This document shows positions 4,549-26,200 of a DNA stretch of 64,000 bases, piece by piece; the first letter of the stretch is position 1, and every line of letters starts with the position of its first letter. The stretch is from Heptranchias perlo (lineage: Eukaryota), in assembly GCF_035084215.1 (NCBI RefSeq), contig NC_090342.1, forward strand, positions 45,694,001 through 45,758,000, in the 5' to 3' direction. Below the pieces are notes generated by a model. It did not search any database, was not told the DNA's origin, and was given only the letters and a program-made list of their open reading frames with translations. The translations under genes and the position numbers were made by a program.

Positions 4549-5097
4549 AGAATTGTAACTGTTTACTTGCTTGCTTTGTACTGTCACTTCAAAGGGGACC
4601 GTTACAGCTCAGTAGCATTTAGATTGTTCCAGCAACTGTTAGGCGGGTAGTGGCCCATCCTTGCTTTGTGATCAATGTATTTGCATACAATTATGTGCAG
4701 GTTATAAATTCCTGAGTTTTCACTTGAAGACAGTTTGAGACTCAGTCCCATTTAGCTTCGACATCTGTAAAGGTCCCAAAAATCTAACAACTTCATTGTT
4801 ATTTTAGCCCTTACACTTGATATCAGATCATCTCTCCTATTAGTTTACCTACTTCCACATAAAAGAAATCCTTGTAATTGCAAATTGGTTGTAAATTGAA
4901 TGGAATAATGTATGATATATATAATAACCAGCACACTACGACTATCTTCCAAGTAGGCATTCAGCATCTGTGCAAAAACGGTCAACATAGCTTCACATAG
5001 AGAGTGATTCTCTTCTTCTTAGTTTGAAGTATTACAACTCTCGCAACATACATGTTGCATGTATGTCCAAAATAAACTTCCCATTTTCTTATTTCAG

Positions 5098-5263
5098 GTG
5101 ACTGTCTCAGAAAACCCCAGACTGGATTACGAAACTCAATCCAATTACGCCCTGTTAATCTACGTTGTAGATAATAAGGGGAATACAGACTTTCAAACAC
5201 TTACAGTTTTGTTAAGCGATGTCAACGAACCCCCGAGATTCCTGGATAATCTAGCAAATGGAG
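5098..5263 (+). CDS. CDHR3: CDHR3 exon (probable exon 3)
   Basis: tttcag|GTG...GGAG|gtaagg; VTVSENPRLDYETQ...DVNEPPRFLDNLANG. Confidence 0.95.
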
Positions 5264-8200
5264 GTAAGGATCAGTGTAGCCTGAGCAAAATGTACATTTC
5301 TCAAAAAAGAGCATGAGCAGAGTTTTCATGGTTGGCATTGTACAGACATTATTATAACAGACTGTTATTTTCACCCTCTTTACAAGCACAAATTAAAAAA
5401 TACACTCTTGGACAGACTGGGATAGATTTTGACTTTTGAAATTTGCATTTATATAACACCTGTCACAACTTCAGGACATCCCAAAGTGCTTTACAGCCAA
5501 TGAAGTACTTTTGAAGTTTTGTCATTGTTGTAATGTAGAAAACATGGCTGCCAATTTGTGCACAGCAAGTTCCCACAAACTGCAATGTGATAATGGCCAG
5601 ATAATCTGTTTTGGTGATGTTGGTTGAGGGATAAATATTGGCCAGGACACCAGGGAGAATGCCCCATCTCTTTTGAGCAGTTGACCAGTGAAACGAGCTG
5701 GCCATGAGGCCCGGGCCTCAATTGAATCTGACTGGTGAGCAAGCGGATGCCAAACAGGTGTCCCGAGTCAGCTCATCGGTTTTGGACCATAGGAATATGG
5801 ACCAGCTGTGACACTTGGTGGGAGTGGGGGGTGAAGAAGGAGGGGGGAAAGTTTCAGGGAGGTCCTGGGGGGGAGCAAAGCAAGATCAAGCCCTGGCCAA
5901 CAGGAGCCCATCGTATTTTAGCGGGGCTCTGACCAATTCTATCCTACAATGGCAATCGGGGTTCTATGTACGTCATAGCACCCCAATTTGTGTATTAAAA
6001 AGGGGGCTTACTGCTTGAAACAGGCAGGAACTTCGGCCGCCAAGCAGTAGCCCCCTGTGACAGTCACAGTGGGCTGATTGTTTGGGTTAACGGGGGCGGT
6101 AAGGCTAACAACCCCATTTTGAGGCCATTACCACTTGGGTCACACTCAGTCGCTTGGCAGCTAATATTTGTTCAGAGTGAATTTTAAGTGATAAAACTGT
6201 TCAAATCGTGCTGTAACTTCCTGTTATTTCCAACATAAAAGACGTGCAATGGGGCAGGCATTATATTCACCATTGTTCCTTTGATTTCTGTGGGGAGCTT
6301 CGACTTTAAACAGGCAACGAACTACTAACACAGTTGCTGAGATTCTCAAGAGAAAATTGCAAACATGTGTCATTTCTCTAAAATGACCACAGCCACTTTG
6401 ACCTAATTTAATTGCTACACATAATCTATCGGGGGGCGGGGGGGCAGATAGAAATTGTGTATCCAGGCAGATGTTTGGGTAGAAAATATGCTAATGAAAA
6501 GAAAGGTGGGGGGGGGTGGGGGGGGGGGGGTGGGGGGGGGGGGGGGAGTGCAGGGATGAAGGTTTATAGGAATCTGAATAGCACTGGTTGCTTTTTCAGG
6601 GAAGGTAGTTAGTGGGGGTGAAAATGAACTTCGGCAGGTGTGCGCAATGGGCGGTAGTAGATTGGCCGCCAGTTATACACCCCACCGATTGAAGTCAATG
6701 GGTGGGGTGTATAATGGGAGCAGATCCACTACCACCTGTTTCCTATAGTTGAATTTCACCCCCTAGTGTTCCTTAAAGTAGGGAGTTAACAGGTTGTGAT
6801 CATGATAGCAGGAGCCAAAGGGAAAGACCATGATAATTAATCATATGTGGACTCTGGATGGAGCAAGTTCGATGGGCCAAATGGCTTTTTCTTGCTGCGG
6901 ATGTTTAAAGCAGAGGTCAACGAAAGAAATAACTCAGCCCTGCATTGTTCCTGTGTAATGGGCAGGGTGGATAAAGGGGAACCAAAGGATGCAGTATATT
7001 TGGATTTCCAAAAGGCGTTCGATAAGGTGCCACATAAAAGATTACTGCACAAGATAAGAGCTCATGGTGTTGGGGGTAATATACTGGCATGGATAGAGGA
7101 TTGGCTAACTAACAGAAGAAAGAGTCGGGATAAAAGGGTCATTGTCAAAATGGCAATCTGTAACTAGTGGGGTGCTGCAGGGCTCAGTGCTGGGGCCTCA
7201 ACTATTTACAATATATATCAATGACTTGGATGAAGGAACAGAGTGTCTTATGGCCAAATTTGCTGATGATACAAAGATAGGTGGAAAAGCAAGTTGCGAT
7301 GAGGACACAAAGTGTCTGCAAAGGGATATTGACAGGTTAAGCGAATGGGCAAAAATTTGGCAGATGGAATATAATGTGGGAAAATGTGAAGTCACCCACT
7401 TTGGGAGGAAAAATAAAAAAGCAAAATATTATTTGAATGGAGAAATACTACAAAATGCTGCAGTACAGAGGGATCTGGGTGTCCTCGTTCATGAAATACA
7501 AAAAGTCAACATACAGGTGCAGCAGGTAATCCGGAAGGAGAATGGAATATTGGCCTTTATTTCTAGGGGGATGGAGTATAAAAGCAGGGAAGTCATGCTA
7601 CAACTGTACAGGGTGCTGGTGAGACCACACCTGGAGTACTGCGTACAGTTCCGGTGCCCTTATTTAAGGAAGGACATACTTGCATTGGAGGCAGTTCAGA
7701 GAAGGTTTCACTGGGTTGATTATGGGTATGGAAGGGTTGTCTCATGAGGAAAGATTGAACAAGTTGGGTCTATACTCATTGGAGTTTAGAAGAATGAGAG
7801 GAGATCTTTTTGAAACATACAAGAAAACATGGCTGCCACCTGTATGTTGACTTTTTGTATTTCATGAACGAGGACACCCAGATCCCTCTGTACTGCAGCA
7901 TTTTGTAGTATTTCTCCATACAAATTGGCAGCATGGTACATCAACTCGGTGAGGGAGGCCCTCTGATCCGCCCAAAACCTGTTGGTTTTCCAGCTGAAGG
8001 AGCTGTCCACGACAGAGTGTTGCCGACTGGCACACTCCAAGGTCCAGAAGTACGTGCTGTGGGACGCACTGAAGCGAGGTGCAGCCTACGCAAAGGCTCT
8101 GTGGGGAAAGGCCACCGTGTAAAGCCACTCCACTTTGTATTGTGCAGAATGTATTAGAAGATATGCACTATATTTTGAATTGTAGGGATGAGATCATAGT

Positions 8201-11200
8201 GTGTATGATCTGCATTGTATTGGTTTGAACTATATTGCTTGAAAGTGTCTTTTTACATGGAACTGTGCGTATCTTAAAATTTTATGAAATAAAGTATATT
8301 TTGAAATTTTAAAATATTGTCACTTCAGTTCAGATCATGTCCCTCTCTGCCATTGTACTTGCCACCAACAAAATATAGAGCCCACTGCAAATGGAATTTA
8401 AAGAAACCCAGCACTTAAATTAAAAAGAATGCAAGTTGGTGTGTGTTACAATGATGCAACGGACATCGAGATCCAGATGACATCAAAAAAAACTGTCTAC
8501 TCTCTTGCAACATTCTGACCCAGTCATCATCCTATTGAATATCTTCCTTACATTAAAGTCTTTTGATCAATCAAGAGGATTATACTAATTGATCCATGAA
8601 TAAATGTATCCACAATAGCCCATCAATGTGCTCATTTATCCTGTGTTACTTCACAGCTGTATATGTGGACTTTCTGGAGAATTTAGCAGTTGATGCGATG
8701 ATCTACGAAGTTCAAGCAACTGATCCTGACAGGGCTGACGTTCTCTCAGTAAGTGATTTCCAAAACAGGTCAACACAAATTCTCAAAACTGACCTTTTTT
8801 TCTTCCCACTTTTTCCTGAAGGTGGTGACTCATGTTGGGATAAAGATGTACCTGCAGTCCTAGATTGCCTCATCCGTGTGACAATCCTTTACTTGTAATT
8901 TATAGTGGCGTGGGGAGGAAAGGGCGTCACAGTCAGACTTCACCCTGCCCTCGTCTAACTTCCTCGCATGCTCGTTTCGCAGTCGGGGTTGCTGGATAGC
9001 GACGAGAAGGAACACTAGCTGATTTTTCCACCCACACTCTGCAGCCAAGAACACGGAGGCTAATTGTATCACTGCTAATCCAGCTAAGATCAGCAAACTC
9101 AGCACAAAGCCTGAGCTCTCCCTGGGCTATAAGATTCAGCACCTCATTGCAGAGTGCTTTTGCCTGCTGTGATATAGGGGGGAGCTCCACAATTTAGCAT
9201 TTATCAAAAAAAAAACACAATTCAGCCAATCTCAAGTTCAGAAGTTCACATCACAATATGCTTCACCAGTGTACCTTATATATCAGGAAAACCTGCTAGT
9301 CAACAATTAATCTGTCGGAGCAAGTTGGCAACATAGAAACCAAGCAACACCTTATTTTACTGTTCAAAAGATTATTTGATTTAGGGTTGCTATTAGGTTT
9401 TATTTGACTTAAGAAAATTGAAATGTGAGATACATCCAATAACCAAATGAGAGTGTTTAAATTGCTACCTTCCTATTTTCCTGTAATATAGGTGGGTATA
9501 CCTGTTGCAATTTCGCATTTTTTTTTTGCCAGTTTTCAAATTTAAAATGCGAACTGGCAATGTTGAAATCCAGTAGCTGAAGTCCCGGAACAGTCAGTAA
9601 ATTGCATTGAGAGGCAGCAATGGAGATAGGAAAGTACCACAATGCAAAGCAGCTCAGAAAAGGCTCTATTTCTTAAGTGCGCTGGTTTGCATTGAGTGAG
9701 TGAGTGAAAATGTGTTGAGGCGTTAACTAAATAACAACCAAATAAAAAGAAAGGAAACTTAAAAATAATGAATCCTTACAGATTTCAAACATCATATCTT
9801 TATATTTTTGTGAAAAAATGTAGAAAAGAACTGGTTCATTTGAGAAAGTAACCAAGTGCTTTGGCTTTATTTCAGTATTCAGTCAACTCTCCTCTGGTTA
9901 CTATTAATCCCAATGGGAAAAATGGGGTGATTCTTGCAGCAAAAACGTTTGACTATGAGAAAGATTTTCACAGGTAACAATTCTTCTTTCCCTTTCAAAA
10001 TTGTCTTATTTTGTTAATTCATTTGTGTTTTACACACTGATAACTTCAGAATACCTAGATTACTGCTTTATATTTTTGCAGCTTCAGTGTGTTAGTGACA
10101 GTAAAGGATGCAGCAGGTAATAACGTCACTGGGATTGTGGTGGTCAATTTAATTAACGTGAATGACAACTGGCCTGTCTTTAAGCAGTAAGTGCAAAAAA
10201 AAAGTGTTTCTTCCTAACTCGATGAATGTTAAAGTTTGCCGAAAACCCGTGTCTGGGCAGATGCAGCTGTAGGAAAGAGAACAATGAAAATAAAAGATTA
10301 AAAACTACTGCCCTGTTCCATAATAAAACAAGAAAATGCTGGATATGCATAGGTTGATCAGTGTCTGTAAAAGGGGTAACGTTAGCTGGTTCTGAAGGGT
10401 CAGTTCTGATGAAGAGTGACACTTAAAATATCAATTGTAAACAATTTTACAACACCAAGTTATAGTCCAGCAATTTTATTTTAAATTCACAAGCTTTCGG
10501 AGGCTACCTCCTTCCTCAGGTGAACGATGTGGAAAAAAGGAGGGGCAATAAATTTTTCCACATCGTTCACCTGAGGAAGGAGGTAGCCTCCGAAAGCTTG
10601 TGAATTTAAAATAAAATTGCTGGACTATAACTTGGTGTTGTAAAATTGTTTACAATTGTCAACCCCAGTCCATCACCGGCATCTCCACATCATGACTTAA
10701 AATATCAACCTTGCTTTTTCCTTCAAATTGATCTGGCTGATCTGCTGTATATTTCCACCGATTTCATTTCAGATTTCCATCATTTAAAAAAAATTATTCA
10801 TTCTTGGAATGTCACTGGCAAAGCTGGCATTTATTGCCCCTCCTTAGGTTCCCTAAGAAAGTGGTGGTGGGCTGCCTTCTTGAATGACTGGTAGCAGTTT
10901 TGATACAACGAAGAGGCTTGCAAGAGCACTTCAGAGGGCAGTTAAGAGTCAACCATTTGTTGTGGAACTGAGTAAGCATGTCACGTTCCCTTCTTGGGAA
11001 TCACTTGGGTTTTTACAACAATCTGCCTGCTTCACGGTCACTTTTTCTAATACCAGCTTTTTATTTCCACCTTTTAAAAAAAAAACTGAATTCAAATTCT
11101 CAAACTGCCATCTTGGGATTTGAGCTCGTGTTCTCTGGATTATTAGTCCAGTAACATAACTACACTACCGTGCCCCATTCACAACTTTTCTTTTTGTTAT

Positions 11201-14200
11201 TTTTTCAGGGAAATTACTTTAGAAAATGTATAAGGGTTCATGTTTTATCTTGTGCTTTGGTTATAACCTCAAACAAATAAATTAATTGGTTTTGCTGAAT
11301 TGGCACTTCGTGGCAGCTGCCGTGTTATCGTGTTATATTCTTGATCCCATGTATCTGTTGCAGAAATAAAATGACATTTGACATTTCGGAAGAAAAGCCA
11401 CCAAATTCAGTAATTGGAAAGGTTACAGCCTACGATGCCGATGACAATGGTACATCAAGCAGCTTGATTTACGTTATGAATACTGCAAACCGGTTCTTCA
11501 CCATTGACTCAGGTACGTGAAATACAAGCCAAAAACAACCTCCGCTGAAATATAACCAGAGCTTGTCATTTAAAATGTACCAACTATTTGGGGATTACAG
11601 CTGTGCACAGACACCAAACGCCTGACAGGAGGAATCCTACATTACAAAGCACAAAGTCTACACATGTTATTCACCAGCTAAAAGGCATGTGTAACTCTGA
11701 ATAAATACTTCCAACAATCTATTAATCGATCCCTGGATTTTCACTTCTTAGTCTGGTATTTTTTTGGTGCAATAAATACAATTGTATGTCTTCCATTTTG
11801 TGATTGAGAACGATATATTAGTGAAGGGGTTACAATGCTGTAACGAATGGGGAGCTTGGGATCTTCTGTAACTACATGAGACAGAAAAAGTATATCATAT
11901 TAAGGCTGAGATCGGTTTATAATCTTCAAATCACACTGAAGAATCTGTATTGATAACATTGGTACACATGCAAAACAAAGCAATTGTCACATGGTGATTC
12001 TACAATGCAAGATTAGTGTAATTAACAGGGTCCTGTGGCACAGAAAAGGCTTTTGCAATCCTTATGCATTACATAAATAACAGAAGAGTATTAGAAGACT
12101 TCAGTTGTTACTCACTCTTATCTGTTCCAGGGCTATGGGGAAAGAGGAGGGGAGTAGGATTAATTGGATAGCTCTTTCAAAGAGCTGACACAGGCACGTT
12201 GGGCCGAATGGCCCCTTCTCTGCTCTATTATTCGATTGCAGGTTACTAAATTAAATAGATTCTTTTAAAATGTTGATATAATTCCAAACATGCCACAACA
12301 GATTAGCAAAAATAACACTGGGCCGCGGGAAGAACTCAACATTCCCTTCTTTATTAACACTTGCCTTTCTTGTTCATTTTCGCCTCTCCTCTCTGGAGGG
12401 GTTGCCTCCTTGCTGGAGAGTGGTTCACAGATGGTAGTAGTCTTCCTGTAACCAACTGGCCCTTGTTCGTGTGTGAGTGATAGCAGGCTATTCTGACTCT
12501 GGAATGGTGGAGGGGGCAATGGAGTTACAGTCGAGTTGGATCCTTTCCTCACCTGACGCTACAATGGTTTCCAGCAGGGATCGGTCTTCTAAATTTTAAC
12601 AATACTCTATTCCCAAAAATATTTAGAAGTGTTTAAAGCGAAATATTATTCTAAGTGCAGTGTGGTGGTTTTCTACTGCAGTTACAGGTGAGCTGATTGT
12701 ATCAGCAATAATTGACAGAGATAACAGACCTTTCAGGGATGTTCCAACTCAAGAGTTTGAAGTCGCTGCTAAAGACAGCCCTTCTGGAGGGCATACGGCC
12801 TGGGTTACAGTGAAAATCATCATAAGAGACGTCAACGATAACCAGCCCTTCTGTTTCCCACATACACACAGGTACCTTGTGAATTAATTCTTTTGTTGCT
12901 GCAAATGTTGGTAAAGGATTCAGTTAGGTGATAGTAGATCCCATTGCACAATGAGAAACTGGCCATTTACGTTGGAGATTTGTTCTGTGTGCTATGTGTG
13001 GCATATCTGGAGACATACAAAAAAAGCTATTTTATGATTTTGCTACACATTATACACAGGAAATCTTTATGATCTGCTAACCAAATTACAAGGGTGCAAA
13101 AAATTGATGTCTGCAAAACATAGATGCCCTGCTACAGCGAATTCTGGCCCTAACAGCACCTGCTGTTAGTTAGACTTGCCCCTACACCCTTCAGCTCAAA
13201 AATGCGTTGCCCACAAAGTTGCTGAAAGCGCGAGCTGGTAACAGCACAGCGAGAGTAAAAGGGCATCAGGTGCCTGAGTGAACAGGGCATCACCTTAACC
13301 AGTGAGATTTAAGGATTGGGAAATAAACACAGGAAGGACAGAAGGAGGCTGAATTCAATATCAAATCAAATAGAGAAAAAGAAATAAAGAGGGGGAAAGA
13401 AGGTTGGATTAGGAGAGAAAGAGACAGAAAAGAACATTTTTTTAAAAAAAAAATGACATTTTTAAAATCTCCCCGAAAAATTCAAAACCTGAAGGAATGA
13501 GACTCCACACTTGTAAGAATTAATTTTTGATGCTAGGAGGGGTTAATTGGCAGTCATTAACACTTACCACATCGATAAAAGGGTACTTATGCTTGTAATG
13601 ATAAGACTTAACTTTCTGTGGCAAGTTTAGTGGGCAATTAATAGGCAAATACAGCAAGTTCCTAAAAAGAAACAGGAGGGCCAAGGACGAGATATCATTT
13701 TTGCAAAGCTAACAGCGGAGTGGCGCAACTCGGACAGCAACTATTGGATATTCACATTTAACCGTGCATCTGCTCTAGGCCTGAAGTTGCTGTACCATTT
13801 ACCCATAAATAACGGAGAACGCCATTAGCCCTTGCCGTTATTGTGACAGAAAATTCTGGCCCATACTCTAAACAGCCTAGACTGCCCACGATTCCCTCAA
13901 GCATAATCTCCCGGTTTCTGTTGTTGCATAGAGCAAAATACAAGCAATTCTCCACAAGGAGAGAGTGAAACTCTGCAGGGAAGAGATGTGCCAGCCCACA
14001 ATGTTTCCCAGTGGCTAGATAAAGAACAACATTGGTGGAAGCCTGTGACTGGATCACCTGCCAACCTGGCATATGATGTGTGGCACAGGGACATCAAAAA
14101 AAGTGAAAAACACACACACCCTTCAAATTTAAATGCATACAAAGTACTTTTCAAAAATACCATAGTACATTGAGCTAGTATCATACCATGGGCACACTAG

Positions 14201-23200: not shown

Positions 23201-26200
23201 TAATAACAAAATTAAAGACAAAAATGTTCTTAAAGTTATCTGCTTTACTGAAACAATAACATTAAGCAGAGTTTGACCATAAAGAGCCAATGCACTTTCT
23301 GATGAAATATTACATAGGAAACTATTAATCGAATGGTCATTTTCCAAGTGACATGACGTGTGTCTAATTTACCTCATCTAGATACAGTGACTGTGTACAT
23401 CACAGTCATGCCAGTAAACGAATTTCGTCCATCCTTCACCCAGACGTCTTATACTTTCAACATATCCGAATTCAGTGAAAGTAAGTAAACCTCCAACGGC
23501 ACTGAGGTAAAACCATCTCGTTCAGTTATTCCTTTTCTGGTTAAGGTTCAAGTGAGCACAAGACATTGCTTAAACAGCCCAGTGATAAAAATTGGCGTAA
23601 AACAAGCAGAAAATCAGCGAAATCAAATCGGGGCCTGAGGAAAGAGTGGGACACAAGCCACCTTCCTTCTTTAAGGTCCCTCTTTATCTTTTTGTGATGC
23701 AAATTAAAGTTTGAAACAATCAAACCATCATTTATGCACATTAAGCACAAAATGTTTAAGAAAATACAATTGTGGAAGCTTTTCTCTTTTTAATGCAACA
23801 GATTCTGATGCCATAAAAAAAGCATTCAAATATATAGAAAACAGAGTGCAGGATTCAATAAGGAGAAATAAAGAAGTGCTACAATATGCTAGAAATAGTG
23901 ACTTTGGGTCCCCAAAATTTTGGGCATAAATTTAGACAAAATTGGTAAATTGGCATCAATGCAGGAAACTCGCATTCTCTGACCTTTTGCATGGGCCGGG
24001 ACTACGTTAATGAGCCAAGTGGGGTTTGGGTGGATGTAATTAGAGAGGGGCGCAAATTCGCAGTTCATAGGAATAGGAGTAGGCCATTCAGCAGGAAAGG
24101 ATGCCCCAGAGCATGGTACATTGGCAAGACCATGCAGACGCTGCGACAACGGATGAACGGACACCGCGCAACAATCGCCAGACAGGAGGGTTCCCTCCCA
24201 GTCGGGGAACACTTCAGCAGTCAAGGACATTCAGCCACCGACCTTCGGGTAAGCGTACTCCAAGGCGGCCTTCGAGACACAAGACAACGCAAAATCGTCA
24301 AGCAGAAATTGATAACCAAGTTCCGCACCCATGAGGACGGCCTCAACCAGGATCTTGGGTTCATGTCACGCTACACGTTACCCCACCAGCGAACAAATGT
24401 TATCTGTCATTTCCACGGCATTCACCAGAGGAAGGAGGAAGCCTCCGAAAGCTTGTGAATTTCAAATAAAATTGCTGGACTATAACTTGGTGTTGTAAAA
24501 TTGTTTACAATTGCCATTCAATTAGATCACGGCTGATCTGTATTTTAACTCCATCTACTCGCTTTAGTTCCGTAACCCTTAATGCCCTTGCCTAACAAAA
24601 ATGCTAAACGAGCGCTCTACCATTTGAGCTCATTCCCCGGTTTGGCATGAAACCATCATAAATCAGTTACACGTGAATTTCGTCGGGATGAAAATGGCGC
24701 AGCATAGCTCTTACACTCCAGGAAATTCCAGGCCATTCTAACAAATCTCCATGTGGTGTTGTACACAGTTTATCTTCAGCAAACCTGGGCTCTCTTATCA
24801 TTACCATTCAGACAATTACGTGCCTCATTAGACCCCAAGGTAAAAAGCAGCATGTGGTCAACCATGACTTACTATCTCAAGGAATTCATGGTGAAGCTCA
24901 TCATTTGTTTATAGTTTGCAACCCATAGCTAAAAGACATTAGAATACAAGGAACAAAGAAATGCCATCCTGCTCACTCCATCACACAGATCCAGTCTAAC
25001 CACTTTTGATCCTTAACTGATCCAAAAACTGATCTAACAACACCCAAGCATAAAATCATTTATCAGCGCACAGTAACCAAATGAACATTGTAAGAATTTA
25101 ATTTTATTAGATAAGGTTCTCTCTCGTTTCCAATTTATCTTGGAAATGGAGAAGTGTCTCATTTACATTCACAATATCCCAAGCTGCTGGATGTCTTAGT
25201 TCTAACTATTTCATTGGGTGGTTTGGTTTTGTAACCAATCAGCTGACTAATATGTTAAAAACCGGCAATAAGTTAACGCAAAGTATCAGAACGATTATAT
25301 TAGTTTAAATAAAAGAGAATGTTGTTATATTTGAACCAAATTTTTGCTGCCATTATAATAGTCCCTAGAGGAAAAATTGCAATTTGTTATTGATCTGATC
25401 TTGATCTGTAGATCTCCTTCAATGGCTGATATTTTCCGGTCCTCTTAGAATGGAGAAATGGAATTTGTAAAACGAATAAGTTAACGTTGATTTTAGCACA
25501 ACATGATTACAACACTCCATGTTAACAATTTGTGTCATGTTGCACTGAGTGCACACATATGAAAATGGAAAAATTGGGAGCATAGAAACCTTCAAACAGA
25601 AAATGACATGATTGTACACAATGTAACAGACTGGTATGGTGAATAATGACTGCTCAATCAACTGTGAAAGACCCAGATTGGGAAAATCTTCAGAAATGAA
25701 AAAAAATGGAAGTAACATGCCTTCTCCATTGTGATATTCCACATTTTCTTGGGGCATCATTAACTATTCCCGGAAGCACTGCCGATGCGCATTTCAAAGG
25801 AGATCAACAACTTGCATTTATATAATGTCTTTAACGTAGTAAAACATCTCAAGGCACTTCACAGGAGTATAATCAGACATTAGGACAGGTGACCAAAAGC
25901 TTGGTCGAAGAGGTGTGTTTTAAGGAACGCCTTAAAAGGAGGAGAGAGAGGTGGAGAGGCAGAGAGGTTTGGGGAGGGAATTCCAGAGTCTAAGGCCTAG
26001 ACGGCTGAAGGCATGGCTGCCAATGGTGGGGCGAAGGGAGTGGGGGGTGGACAGGAGGTCAGGGTTGGCGAAACGCAGATTTCTCGGAAAGTTGCAGGGT
26101 TGGAAGAGGTATAGAGATAGGCAGATTGAATGTAGTGAAATTAGCAACAGTGCCAGCACAATAGTGTAACTGTACAATGTTATCTAATAACTGCTTCTCT

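What the first reader, a model, noticed from the sequence alone, without database searches (positions are those of the whole stretch)
10432..10658. Perfect 106-bp palindrome in a cdhr3 intron encodes a self-masked hammerhead ribozyme on both strands
Seen: the arms 10432-10537 and 10553-10658 are mismatch-free with a 15-nt loop, so the insertion is very young. Each arm holds a complete minimal hammerhead (stem I TTCAC/GTGAA, CUGAGGA, stem II GGAGG/CCTCC, GAAA, palindromic AAGCTT helix III, CUU site). Known: Penelope-like elements carry such minimal hammerheads, which are thought to cleave as dimers. Inference: on either strand the antisense arm is transcribed first, so the ribozyme would be born into a 106-bp duplex. 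That could let a self-cleaving motif sit about 250-400 nt after a coding exon without cutting the pre-mRNA, while creating a dsRNA substrate for ADAR or Dicer.
Basis: partly seen in the sequence, partly recalled or inferred. Interest (0 to 1): 0.7.

Follow-up and report, generated by a model that had tools for sequence, protein, structure and literature searches.

The report
Mirror-image Penelope retrotransposon stub in cdhr3
This perfect DNA palindrome in an intron of a cadherin gene is one of many similar short, back-to-back stubs left by a Penelope-type jumping gene in this genome; the layout is already described, and the hiding of its ribozyme is likely a by-product of how the element inserts, not a device.

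Summary
Observation confirmed: perfect 106-bp arms, 15-nt spacer, a minimal hammerhead motif on each strand, in a cdhr3 intron. The arms are the end (pseudo-LTR) of a Penelope-like element (PLE); a copy with an open 902-aa ORF exists in this genome, and the 39-nt hammerhead has 5,781 exact matches. Of 70 sites sampled by position, 50 are head-to-head pairs, 48 with exactly one tailed arm, 49 with a 12-14-bp TSD. Inverted pLTR plus tail plus TSD is a published PLE footprint. The duplex is predicted to mask the ribozyme, but masking is probably not needed: published minimal PLE hammerheads do not cut as monomers, and 20 of 70 sites are unpaired. An RNA-like contig splices across this intron. Likely origin (inferred): both strands of a staggered cut prime reverse transcription at the element's two start sites, and the two cDNAs are end-joined; the spacer is copied from the flank 135 bp away. 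This scan has noted the same reading before on other DNA, in this genome too. Cleavage, editing and small RNAs are untested.

The parts
10421..10434 (.). Target-site duplication, left copy (14 bp)
   Evidence: identical to 10695-10708
10432..10537 (-). Left arm: inverted, untailed copy of the PLE end; its outermost 3 bp lie inside the TSD
   Evidence: same end class as 60 of 120 arms
10486..10524 (-). Minimal type-I hammerhead motif, minus strand
10538..10552 (.). Spacer: filler DNA, not element sequence; with one base on each side (17 nt) it is the reverse complement of 10829-10845
   Evidence: only match in the window
10553..10658 (+). Right arm: PLE end from about the predicted transcription start, sense to cdhr3
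10566..10604 (+). Minimal type-I hammerhead motif (stem I, core, extra A, stem II, GAAA, palindromic mini helix III, CUU site 10597-10599)
   Evidence: 5,781 exact matches in the genome
10659..10694 (+). 36-nt PLE tail, on this arm only; in the intact element it leads up to the ORF start codon
10695..10708 (.). Target-site duplication, right copy
10829..10845 (-). Flanking DNA that matches the spacer; likely its template during end joining
10082..10186 (+). cdhr3 exon upstream of the host intron
11364..11512 (+). cdhr3 exon downstream of the host intron; joined to the upstream exon in an RNA-like contig
   Evidence: Pfam Cadherin E 6e-5, below cutoff; run X5, record 17
5092..5256 (+). Exon region used to name the gene as CDHR3-like
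24111..24516 (+). Second, older, unpaired copy of the same family in a later intron: end of the ORF (GIY-YIG-like), shortened 3' UTR, untailed pLTR end; hammerhead core changed at U4

Best explanation
The palindrome is a short head-to-head insertion of the hammerhead-bearing end of a Penelope-like retrotransposon, flanked by a 14-bp target-site duplication, and was likely made when both strands of a staggered DNA cut each primed a cDNA on the element's RNA leader and the two cDNAs were then end-joined. Shown: identity with the element end, the TSD, one tailed and one untailed arm, many sister copies, a spacer that matches nearby flank. Inferred: (1) the pLTR promoter (TATA-like box 29 nt before an initiator-like A, 12 nt before the hammerhead) starts an RNA; (2) the element's protein cuts the target with a 12-14-nt stagger; (3) one strand primes at the inner start site (about +90 from the hammerhead) and the other at the outer site (about +126); (4) both cDNAs run off the 5' end of uncut RNA after about 100 and 140 nt; (5) host end joining links them, here with filler copied from the flank. 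In cdhr3 pre-mRNA the arms are predicted to pair and hide the hammerhead, but a lone minimal hammerhead would probably not cut anyway; the insertion is most likely a neutral passenger removed with the intron. Confidence: about 0.95 for the identity, about 0.65 for two-ended priming.
For: Family: 5,781 exact hammerhead matches, 0 for the reversed control. The same end follows the ORF and 3' UTR in the loci. L094 holds a 918-codon open frame (902 aa from the Met) with RVT_1 (E 3e-10, above cutoff), a DKG motif and a C-terminal YIG motif. Position-ordered sample, all 70 sites behind the first 100 listed matches (C1, 1.4-35 Mb): 50 pairs, all head-to-head; 48 of 50 tailed/untailed, 2 untailed/untailed (apparently one event duplicated), 0 tailed/tailed; p about 1e-13 against independent ends at 0.5. 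TSD 12-14 bp in 49 of 50 pairs against 4 of 20 unpaired sites. 3' ends of 120 arms: 60 at +86..+99, 59 at +123..+130, 1 at +53. 5' ends: 79 of 120 at -12..+8, 30 of them at -12/-11, the predicted start. Centres differ between otherwise identical copies: microhomologies, A/T runs, element-derived filler. In 15 of 27 long pairs the untailed arm reaches further 5' than the tailed one, which a simple copy-back of the tailed cDNA cannot give; a copy-back of an untailed cDNA cannot make the tail. In 6 of 27 long pairs both arms stop within 21 nt of each other, and arms are closer to each other than to the median other copy in 19 of 19 pairs, as expected from one RNA template. In vitro the Anolis PLE protein nicks and extends both strands and starts at two sites that bracket the tail (PMC11167929).
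Against: The mechanism is inferred from genomic ends; no biochemistry was done. PMC11167929 saw no difference in start site between top and bottom strands, which does not by itself predict the strict one-tail rule. My idea that the untailed cDNA always leads failed in the extra sample: 9 of 13 in the first set, but 6 untailed-longer, 5 tailed-longer, 2 equal among loci picked by ORF match. Arm similarity can also come from gene conversion, and in 3 of 19 pairs another locus was closer than the partner arm. The transcription start is predicted from motifs and copy ends, not measured. The sample is one region of one contig, and each site was anchored on an exact hammerhead, which biases against arms that start inside it. 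Pfam GIY-YIG scored only E 0.025, below cutoff, on the window fragment and was not reported on the full ORF.
Confidence: 0.72

Rival explanations
1. Masking matters: the antisense-first geometry lets an otherwise harmful self-cleaving motif persist in introns, so paired copies are favoured there over unpaired sense copies.
For: Full duplex predicted; hammerhead fold disfavoured by 69.5 kcal/mol. A single arm is predicted to fold stems I and II (pair probabilities 0.87-0.95). The unpaired sense copy in this gene (24421-24459) has a core change (n=1, in a copy 7% diverged). The intron is spliced in an RNA-like contig. Two of the partner arms start within 2 nt of the cleavage site, a weak hint that some RNA is cut. 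Tandem retrozymes are reported depleted from introns in Xenopus (10.64898/2026.07.22.740005). [quoted passage not shown]
Against: Single minimal hammerheads showed no detectable cleavage (PMC4209133); the Anolis one needs the protein, and no RNA-seq ends were found at its site (PMC11167929). A trans dimer here has only a short helix III (-4.9 kcal/mol). 20 of 70 sites are unpaired. Pairing is explained by insertion alone. Most arms start upstream of the hammerhead, so their templates were uncut.
Confidence: 0.07
2. The inverted arm arises by self-priming or fold-back on one nucleic acid (the antisense-template self-priming idea of Arkhipova et al. 2013), and the tail by endonuclease resolution of the intermediate.
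For: Published proposals (PMC3846280; PMC8557442). It explains identical arms, equal 5' ends in 6 of 27 long pairs and element-derived fillers, and it gives a one-tail rule naturally.
Against: Either arm can be the longer one. The spacer here matches flanking target DNA, which points to free DNA ends being joined at the site. The tail has been mapped to the stretch between two RT start sites on sense RNA (PMC11167929).
Confidence: 0.17
3. The palindrome is a non-autonomous unit (MITE-like or retrozyme-like) that moves as a whole.
For: Many copies of similar size with TSDs.
Against: Centres differ from copy to copy, sizes grade up to several kb with ORF parts in both arms, ends are asymmetric, no tandem arrays. 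A few identical sites (L001-L003, L027/L028, L111/L112) share their flanks too, so they are duplications of the region.
Confidence: 0.03
4. Assembly or fold-back read artefact.
For: Perfect palindromes can come from fold-back reads (general knowledge).
Against: A TSD, a one-sided tail and a flank-derived spacer would not come from a fold-back read; 50 of 70 other sites, and older diverged pairs (L162), have the same build.
Confidence: 0.01

Closest known systems
Endonuclease-bearing PLE insertions with inverted pLTR, tail and TSD (Adineta vaga Pen2a_Av, PMC3846280; general scheme in PMC8557442 Fig. 2 legend)
   Same: Head-to-head inverted 5'-truncated copy, 30-40-nt tail on one end only, TSD, TATA-like box before an initiator in the pLTR, tail running into the ORF start.
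   Different: Here the whole insert is 260 bp with no ORF; TSD 12-14 bp against 8-10 bp in the rotifer cases; 37 of 70 sampled sites are such short pairs.
Minimal PLE hammerheads (PMC4209133)
   Same: Type I, extra base between positions 9 and 10.1, palindromic mini helix III, located in the pLTR; dual motifs on opposite strands were already noted there.
   Different: This sequence variant (CUU site, 5-bp stem II) has not been assayed in the papers I read; the two motifs here are 41 nt apart inside perfect arms.
Poseidon element of Anolis carolinensis, PAc (PMC11167929)
   Same: Hammerhead upstream of two internal RT start sites that bracket the tail; uncut RNA as template.
   Different: In PAc the ORF starts inside stem II; here the first Met follows the tail. 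That paper's main text does not discuss inverted insertions or TSDs.
L1 twin priming (recalled, from no call)
   Same: Both target strands prime reverse transcription and an inversion results.
   Different: In L1 the two cDNAs cover different parts of the RNA; here both cover the same part, giving a palindrome.
Non-LTR retrozymes (10.64898/2026.07.22.740005)
   Same: Small, PLE-related, type I hammerhead, no ORF.
   Different: Retrozymes are tandem direct repeats; this is an inverted pair built at insertion.

Membership tests
EN+ Penelope-like element (source of the arms) | Single ORF with reverse transcriptase | tested here: met
   L094: 918-codon open frame, RVT_1 40.5 bits against cutoff 29.6; DKG motif
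EN+ Penelope-like element (source of the arms) | C-terminal GIY-YIG endonuclease | tested here: inconclusive
   YIG motif at residue 805 of 902; Pfam GIY-YIG E 0.025, below cutoff, on the window fragment and not reported on the full ORF
EN+ Penelope-like element (source of the arms) | pLTR with hammerhead; partial tandem before the ORF | tested here: met
   Arm sequence follows the ORF and 3' UTR; in L094 its last part also precedes the ORF
EN+ Penelope-like element (source of the arms) | Inverted 5'-truncated copy, 30-40-nt tail on one end, TSD | tested here: met
   Window: 36-nt tail, 14-bp TSD; 48 of 50 pairs one-tailed, 49 of 50 with 12-14-bp TSD
Penelope/Poseidon clade versus Neptune or others | RT phylogeny | not tested
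   No tree was built
Minimal type-I hammerhead | Core residues, stems I and II, palindromic helix III, NUH site | tested here: met
   across related copies the stems keep pairing, with a two-sided change in stem II in 3 motifs and in stem I in some, and N7 and loop II vary. Rfam models did not match
Minimal type-I hammerhead | Self-cleavage as monomer or dimer | not testable with these tools
   Needs a bench assay
Non-LTR retrozyme | Tandem direct repeats each with a hammerhead | tested here: not met
   Inverted pair; one sense motif per strand
MITE-like unit | Fixed unit with matching terminal inverted repeats that moves whole | tested here: not met
   Asymmetric ends, variable centres, size continuum
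miRNA precursor | Rfam gathering score or processed small RNA | tested here: not met
   Five hairpin models hit, all below gathering score; small RNA not tested

The most novel reading that the evidence does not exclude
These palindromes record two-ended target-primed reverse transcription: a PLE protein dimer cuts with a 12-14-nt stagger and copies one RNA twice, once from each strand, always from different start sites, and host end joining links the cDNAs. This would explain the inverted pLTR, the one-sided tail and the TSD of PLEs in a single reaction, and it would leave this genome with roughly one to two thousand near-perfect 100-bp hairpins (extrapolated from one region), some in introns, as a source of endogenous double-stranded RNA. 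Not found in print in my searches (subscription papers and supplements not seen), but noted before in this scan.
Probability: 0.6. Interest if true: 0.5.

Novelty: new member of a known kind. Interest (0 to 1): 0.22.

Why it matters
The locus itself is ordinary: one of many stubs of a retrotransposon family with a described footprint. Its value is as a data point. PMC8557442 names the formation of tandem and inverted PLE structures as an open mechanistic question; this genome holds thousands of near-identical copies and an open ORF, so the two-ended priming model can be tested by a census and in vitro. If intronic copies are edited or diced they would be a counterpart of inverted Alu pairs, but nothing here shows that.

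Tried and rejected
Rfam scan: no hammerhead family match; miRNA hits rejected as generic hairpins. No RNA holder was listed on record; four runs were RNA by guess. DNA contigs of runs X1 and X4 run 18-20 nt from unique flank into the element at the left junction, and X1 at the right one, without differences, but that is short of the tool's 31-letter rule and the runs are one sample, perhaps the assembly's own. No contig of X1-X4 covered the middle of the spacer, 10539-10547; the tool warns that a hole proves nothing, so this is no evidence either way. No empty-site joint was among the 15 joints shown; 318 were not shown. Editing could not be tested: no RNA-like cover in the unique intron bins. 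A DNA search with the part 3' of the cleavage site, meant to sample 5' ends without bias, returned nothing because common words are skipped. The idea that the untailed arm is always the longer one did not hold in the second sample. A sense hammerhead in L162, checked as a possible unmasked copy near cdhr3, is itself in a palindrome. The first cdhr3 exons were not found by motif in the 25 kb upstream of 5100. The Lunse et al. dimer paper was not held. Look-ups of earlier findings by place and by sequence were empty.

Full report
1. Observation. The arms at 10432-10537 and 10553-10658 are exact reverse complements around a 15-nt spacer. A motif scan of my own finds a minimal type-I hammerhead at 10566-10604 on the plus strand and its mirror at 10486-10524; nothing else in the window passes, and shuffled loci give 0 hits. 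Rfam reports no hammerhead family there, only miRNA hairpin models below their cutoffs. The gene is CDHR3-like, on the plus strand, and the palindrome lies in the intron 10187-11363.

2. What it is. A search of the window's own genome (3.25 Gb) with the right arm and tail scored 40 of 671 candidates; all 40 were 99-100% identical. The 39-nt hammerhead has 5,781 exact matches, the reversed control none. A second copy in this window (24111-24516) follows the end of a GIY-YIG-like frame. In the loci fetched with it, the arm sequence is the last 145 nt after ORF and 3' UTR. L094 holds an open frame of 918 codons, 902 from the Met, with RVT_1 above cutoff, a DKG motif and a late YIG motif; the tail leads into its start codon. 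The GIY-YIG call rests on the motif and a sub-threshold Pfam hit. The arms are therefore the pLTR end of a Penelope-like element.

3. Census. I fetched all 70 sites behind the first 100 listed matches (contig C1, 1.4-35 Mb) and classed them against L094. No site was dropped. Fifty are head-to-head pairs (37 short, 13 long), 20 have no partner within 160 nt of their 5' end in up to 6.5 kb of flank. Of the 50 pairs, 48 have one tailed and one untailed arm, 2 have two untailed arms and look like one event duplicated, none has two tails (p about 1e-13 for 48 of 49 at 0.5). TSDs are 12-14 bp in 49 of 50 pairs and in 4 of 20 unpaired sites; the finder may include a base or two of chance overlap. The 3' ends of the 120 arms fall in two groups, +86..+99 (60) and +123..+130 (59; the upper edge is capped by the reference), with 1 outlier. 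The 5' ends pile up at -12..+8 (79 of 120; 30 at -12/-11), where an initiator-like A lies 29 nt after a TATA-like box; 32 are long truncations, 6 lie at -30..-14 and 3 inside the hammerhead beyond +8. Scaling 19 pairs with both motifs exact, or 37 short pairs, per 100 matches gives about 1,100-2,100 short palindromes; this is an extrapolation from one region.

4. How it likely forms. A staggered cut that leaves a TSD has a free 3' end on each strand. If each primes a cDNA on the sense RNA, the product is head-to-head, as all 50 pairs are. In vitro, the Anolis PLE protein nicks and extends both strands, starts at two internal sites that bracket the tail, and uses uncut RNA (PMC11167929; parts 1-2 of 4 read); its main text does not mention inverted products or TSDs. 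Short arms would be run-off copies of the RNA leader. Centres differ between copies and show microhomology, A/T runs or element-derived filler. Here the spacer plus one base each side, 17 nt, is the reverse complement of 10829-10845, the only match in the window, as templated end joining would give (general knowledge). Simple fold-back fits poorly: of 27 long pairs with both ends in view (13 from the census, 14 from loci picked by ORF match or listed with them; two cut by the locus edge were left out) the untailed arm was longer in 15, the tailed in 6, and 6 were within 21 nt (read by eye from the tables). Arms were closer to each other than to the median other copy in 19 of 19 pairs and at least as close as the nearest other copy in 16 of 19; gene conversion could also do this. 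My further guess that the untailed arm always leads did not hold. The published alternative is self-priming on an antisense template (PMC3846280, passages).

5. The masking idea. The hairpin is predicted at -187.5 kcal/mol and the hammerhead fold costs 69.5 kcal/mol more, so masking is a fair prediction. A lone arm folds stems I and II, and related copies show stem-preserving changes, so the motif is probably under selection in source elements. But a single minimal motif showed no detectable cleavage and dimers only little (PMC4209133; parts 1-2 of 4 read; also PMC6765202, passages), and the Anolis motif needed protein. Each strand here has one sense copy, and the trans helix is weak (-4.9 kcal/mol). 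Twenty of 70 sites are unpaired, though I do not know which lie in genes. An 807-nt contig of RNA-like run X5 joins 9876-9970, 10079-10186 and 11364-11512, so at least some transcripts splice across the intron; this fits both masking and an inert motif. Editing and small RNAs could not be examined.

6. Known or new. Inverted pLTR, one-sided 30-40-nt tail and TSD are described (PMC3846280; PMC8557442, passages), and paired minimal hammerheads on opposite strands were noted in PMC4209133. I found no paper stating two-ended priming for PLEs in six searches; subscription papers are not held and I opened no supplements. The scan's own notes hold 134 findings with these words in at least 15 genomes, several with the same twin-primed reading and one in this genome. 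I had written my reading before that look-up; the notes are not independent evidence.

7. Verdict. Real, ordinary, a new member of a known kind; interest 0.22. The ribozyme masking is likely incidental. The census supports a testable model of PLE insertion (probability about 0.6, interest 0.5 if true).

Noticed in passing
window 24111-24516: Unpaired sense copy of the same family in a later cdhr3 intron; it lacks about 200 nt of 3' UTR present in other copies, and its hammerhead core is changed at U4.
   Followed up: partly
L162:3842-4034 (about 6 kb before the window start): A 193-bp palindrome of an older subfamily with different stems, same tailed/untailed build and an apparent 12-bp TSD.
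   Followed up: partly
window 10366-10420 and 10709-10780: The target site looks like a decayed older repeat with a hammerhead-like core just left of the TSD (resemblance to a shark short repeat is recalled, from no call); a second minimal hammerhead type with other stems was seen twice in my loci.
   Followed up: partly
window 7431-7519 and 7837-7925: An 89-nt, 99% complementary inverted repeat 317 nt apart in a LINE-like fragment, at the edge of what may be a recent inversion or insertion.
   Followed up: no
L114 and L031: Partner arms start at +33 and +36, next to the predicted cleavage site (+34); may come from cut RNA.
   Followed up: no
L094:2003-4756 (-): Copy with an open 902-aa ORF and a partial pLTR in front; a candidate recent source element.
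   Followed up: partly
L001-L003: Unpaired tailed stubs inside a satellite-like array, amplified with their flanks.
   Followed up: no
L026: A tailed stub sits just before what reads as a histone H3 start (recognised from recall), on an unplaced contig.
   Followed up: no
L141 and L129: Pair junctions hold 100 and 24 nt of non-element DNA of unknown origin.
   Followed up: no
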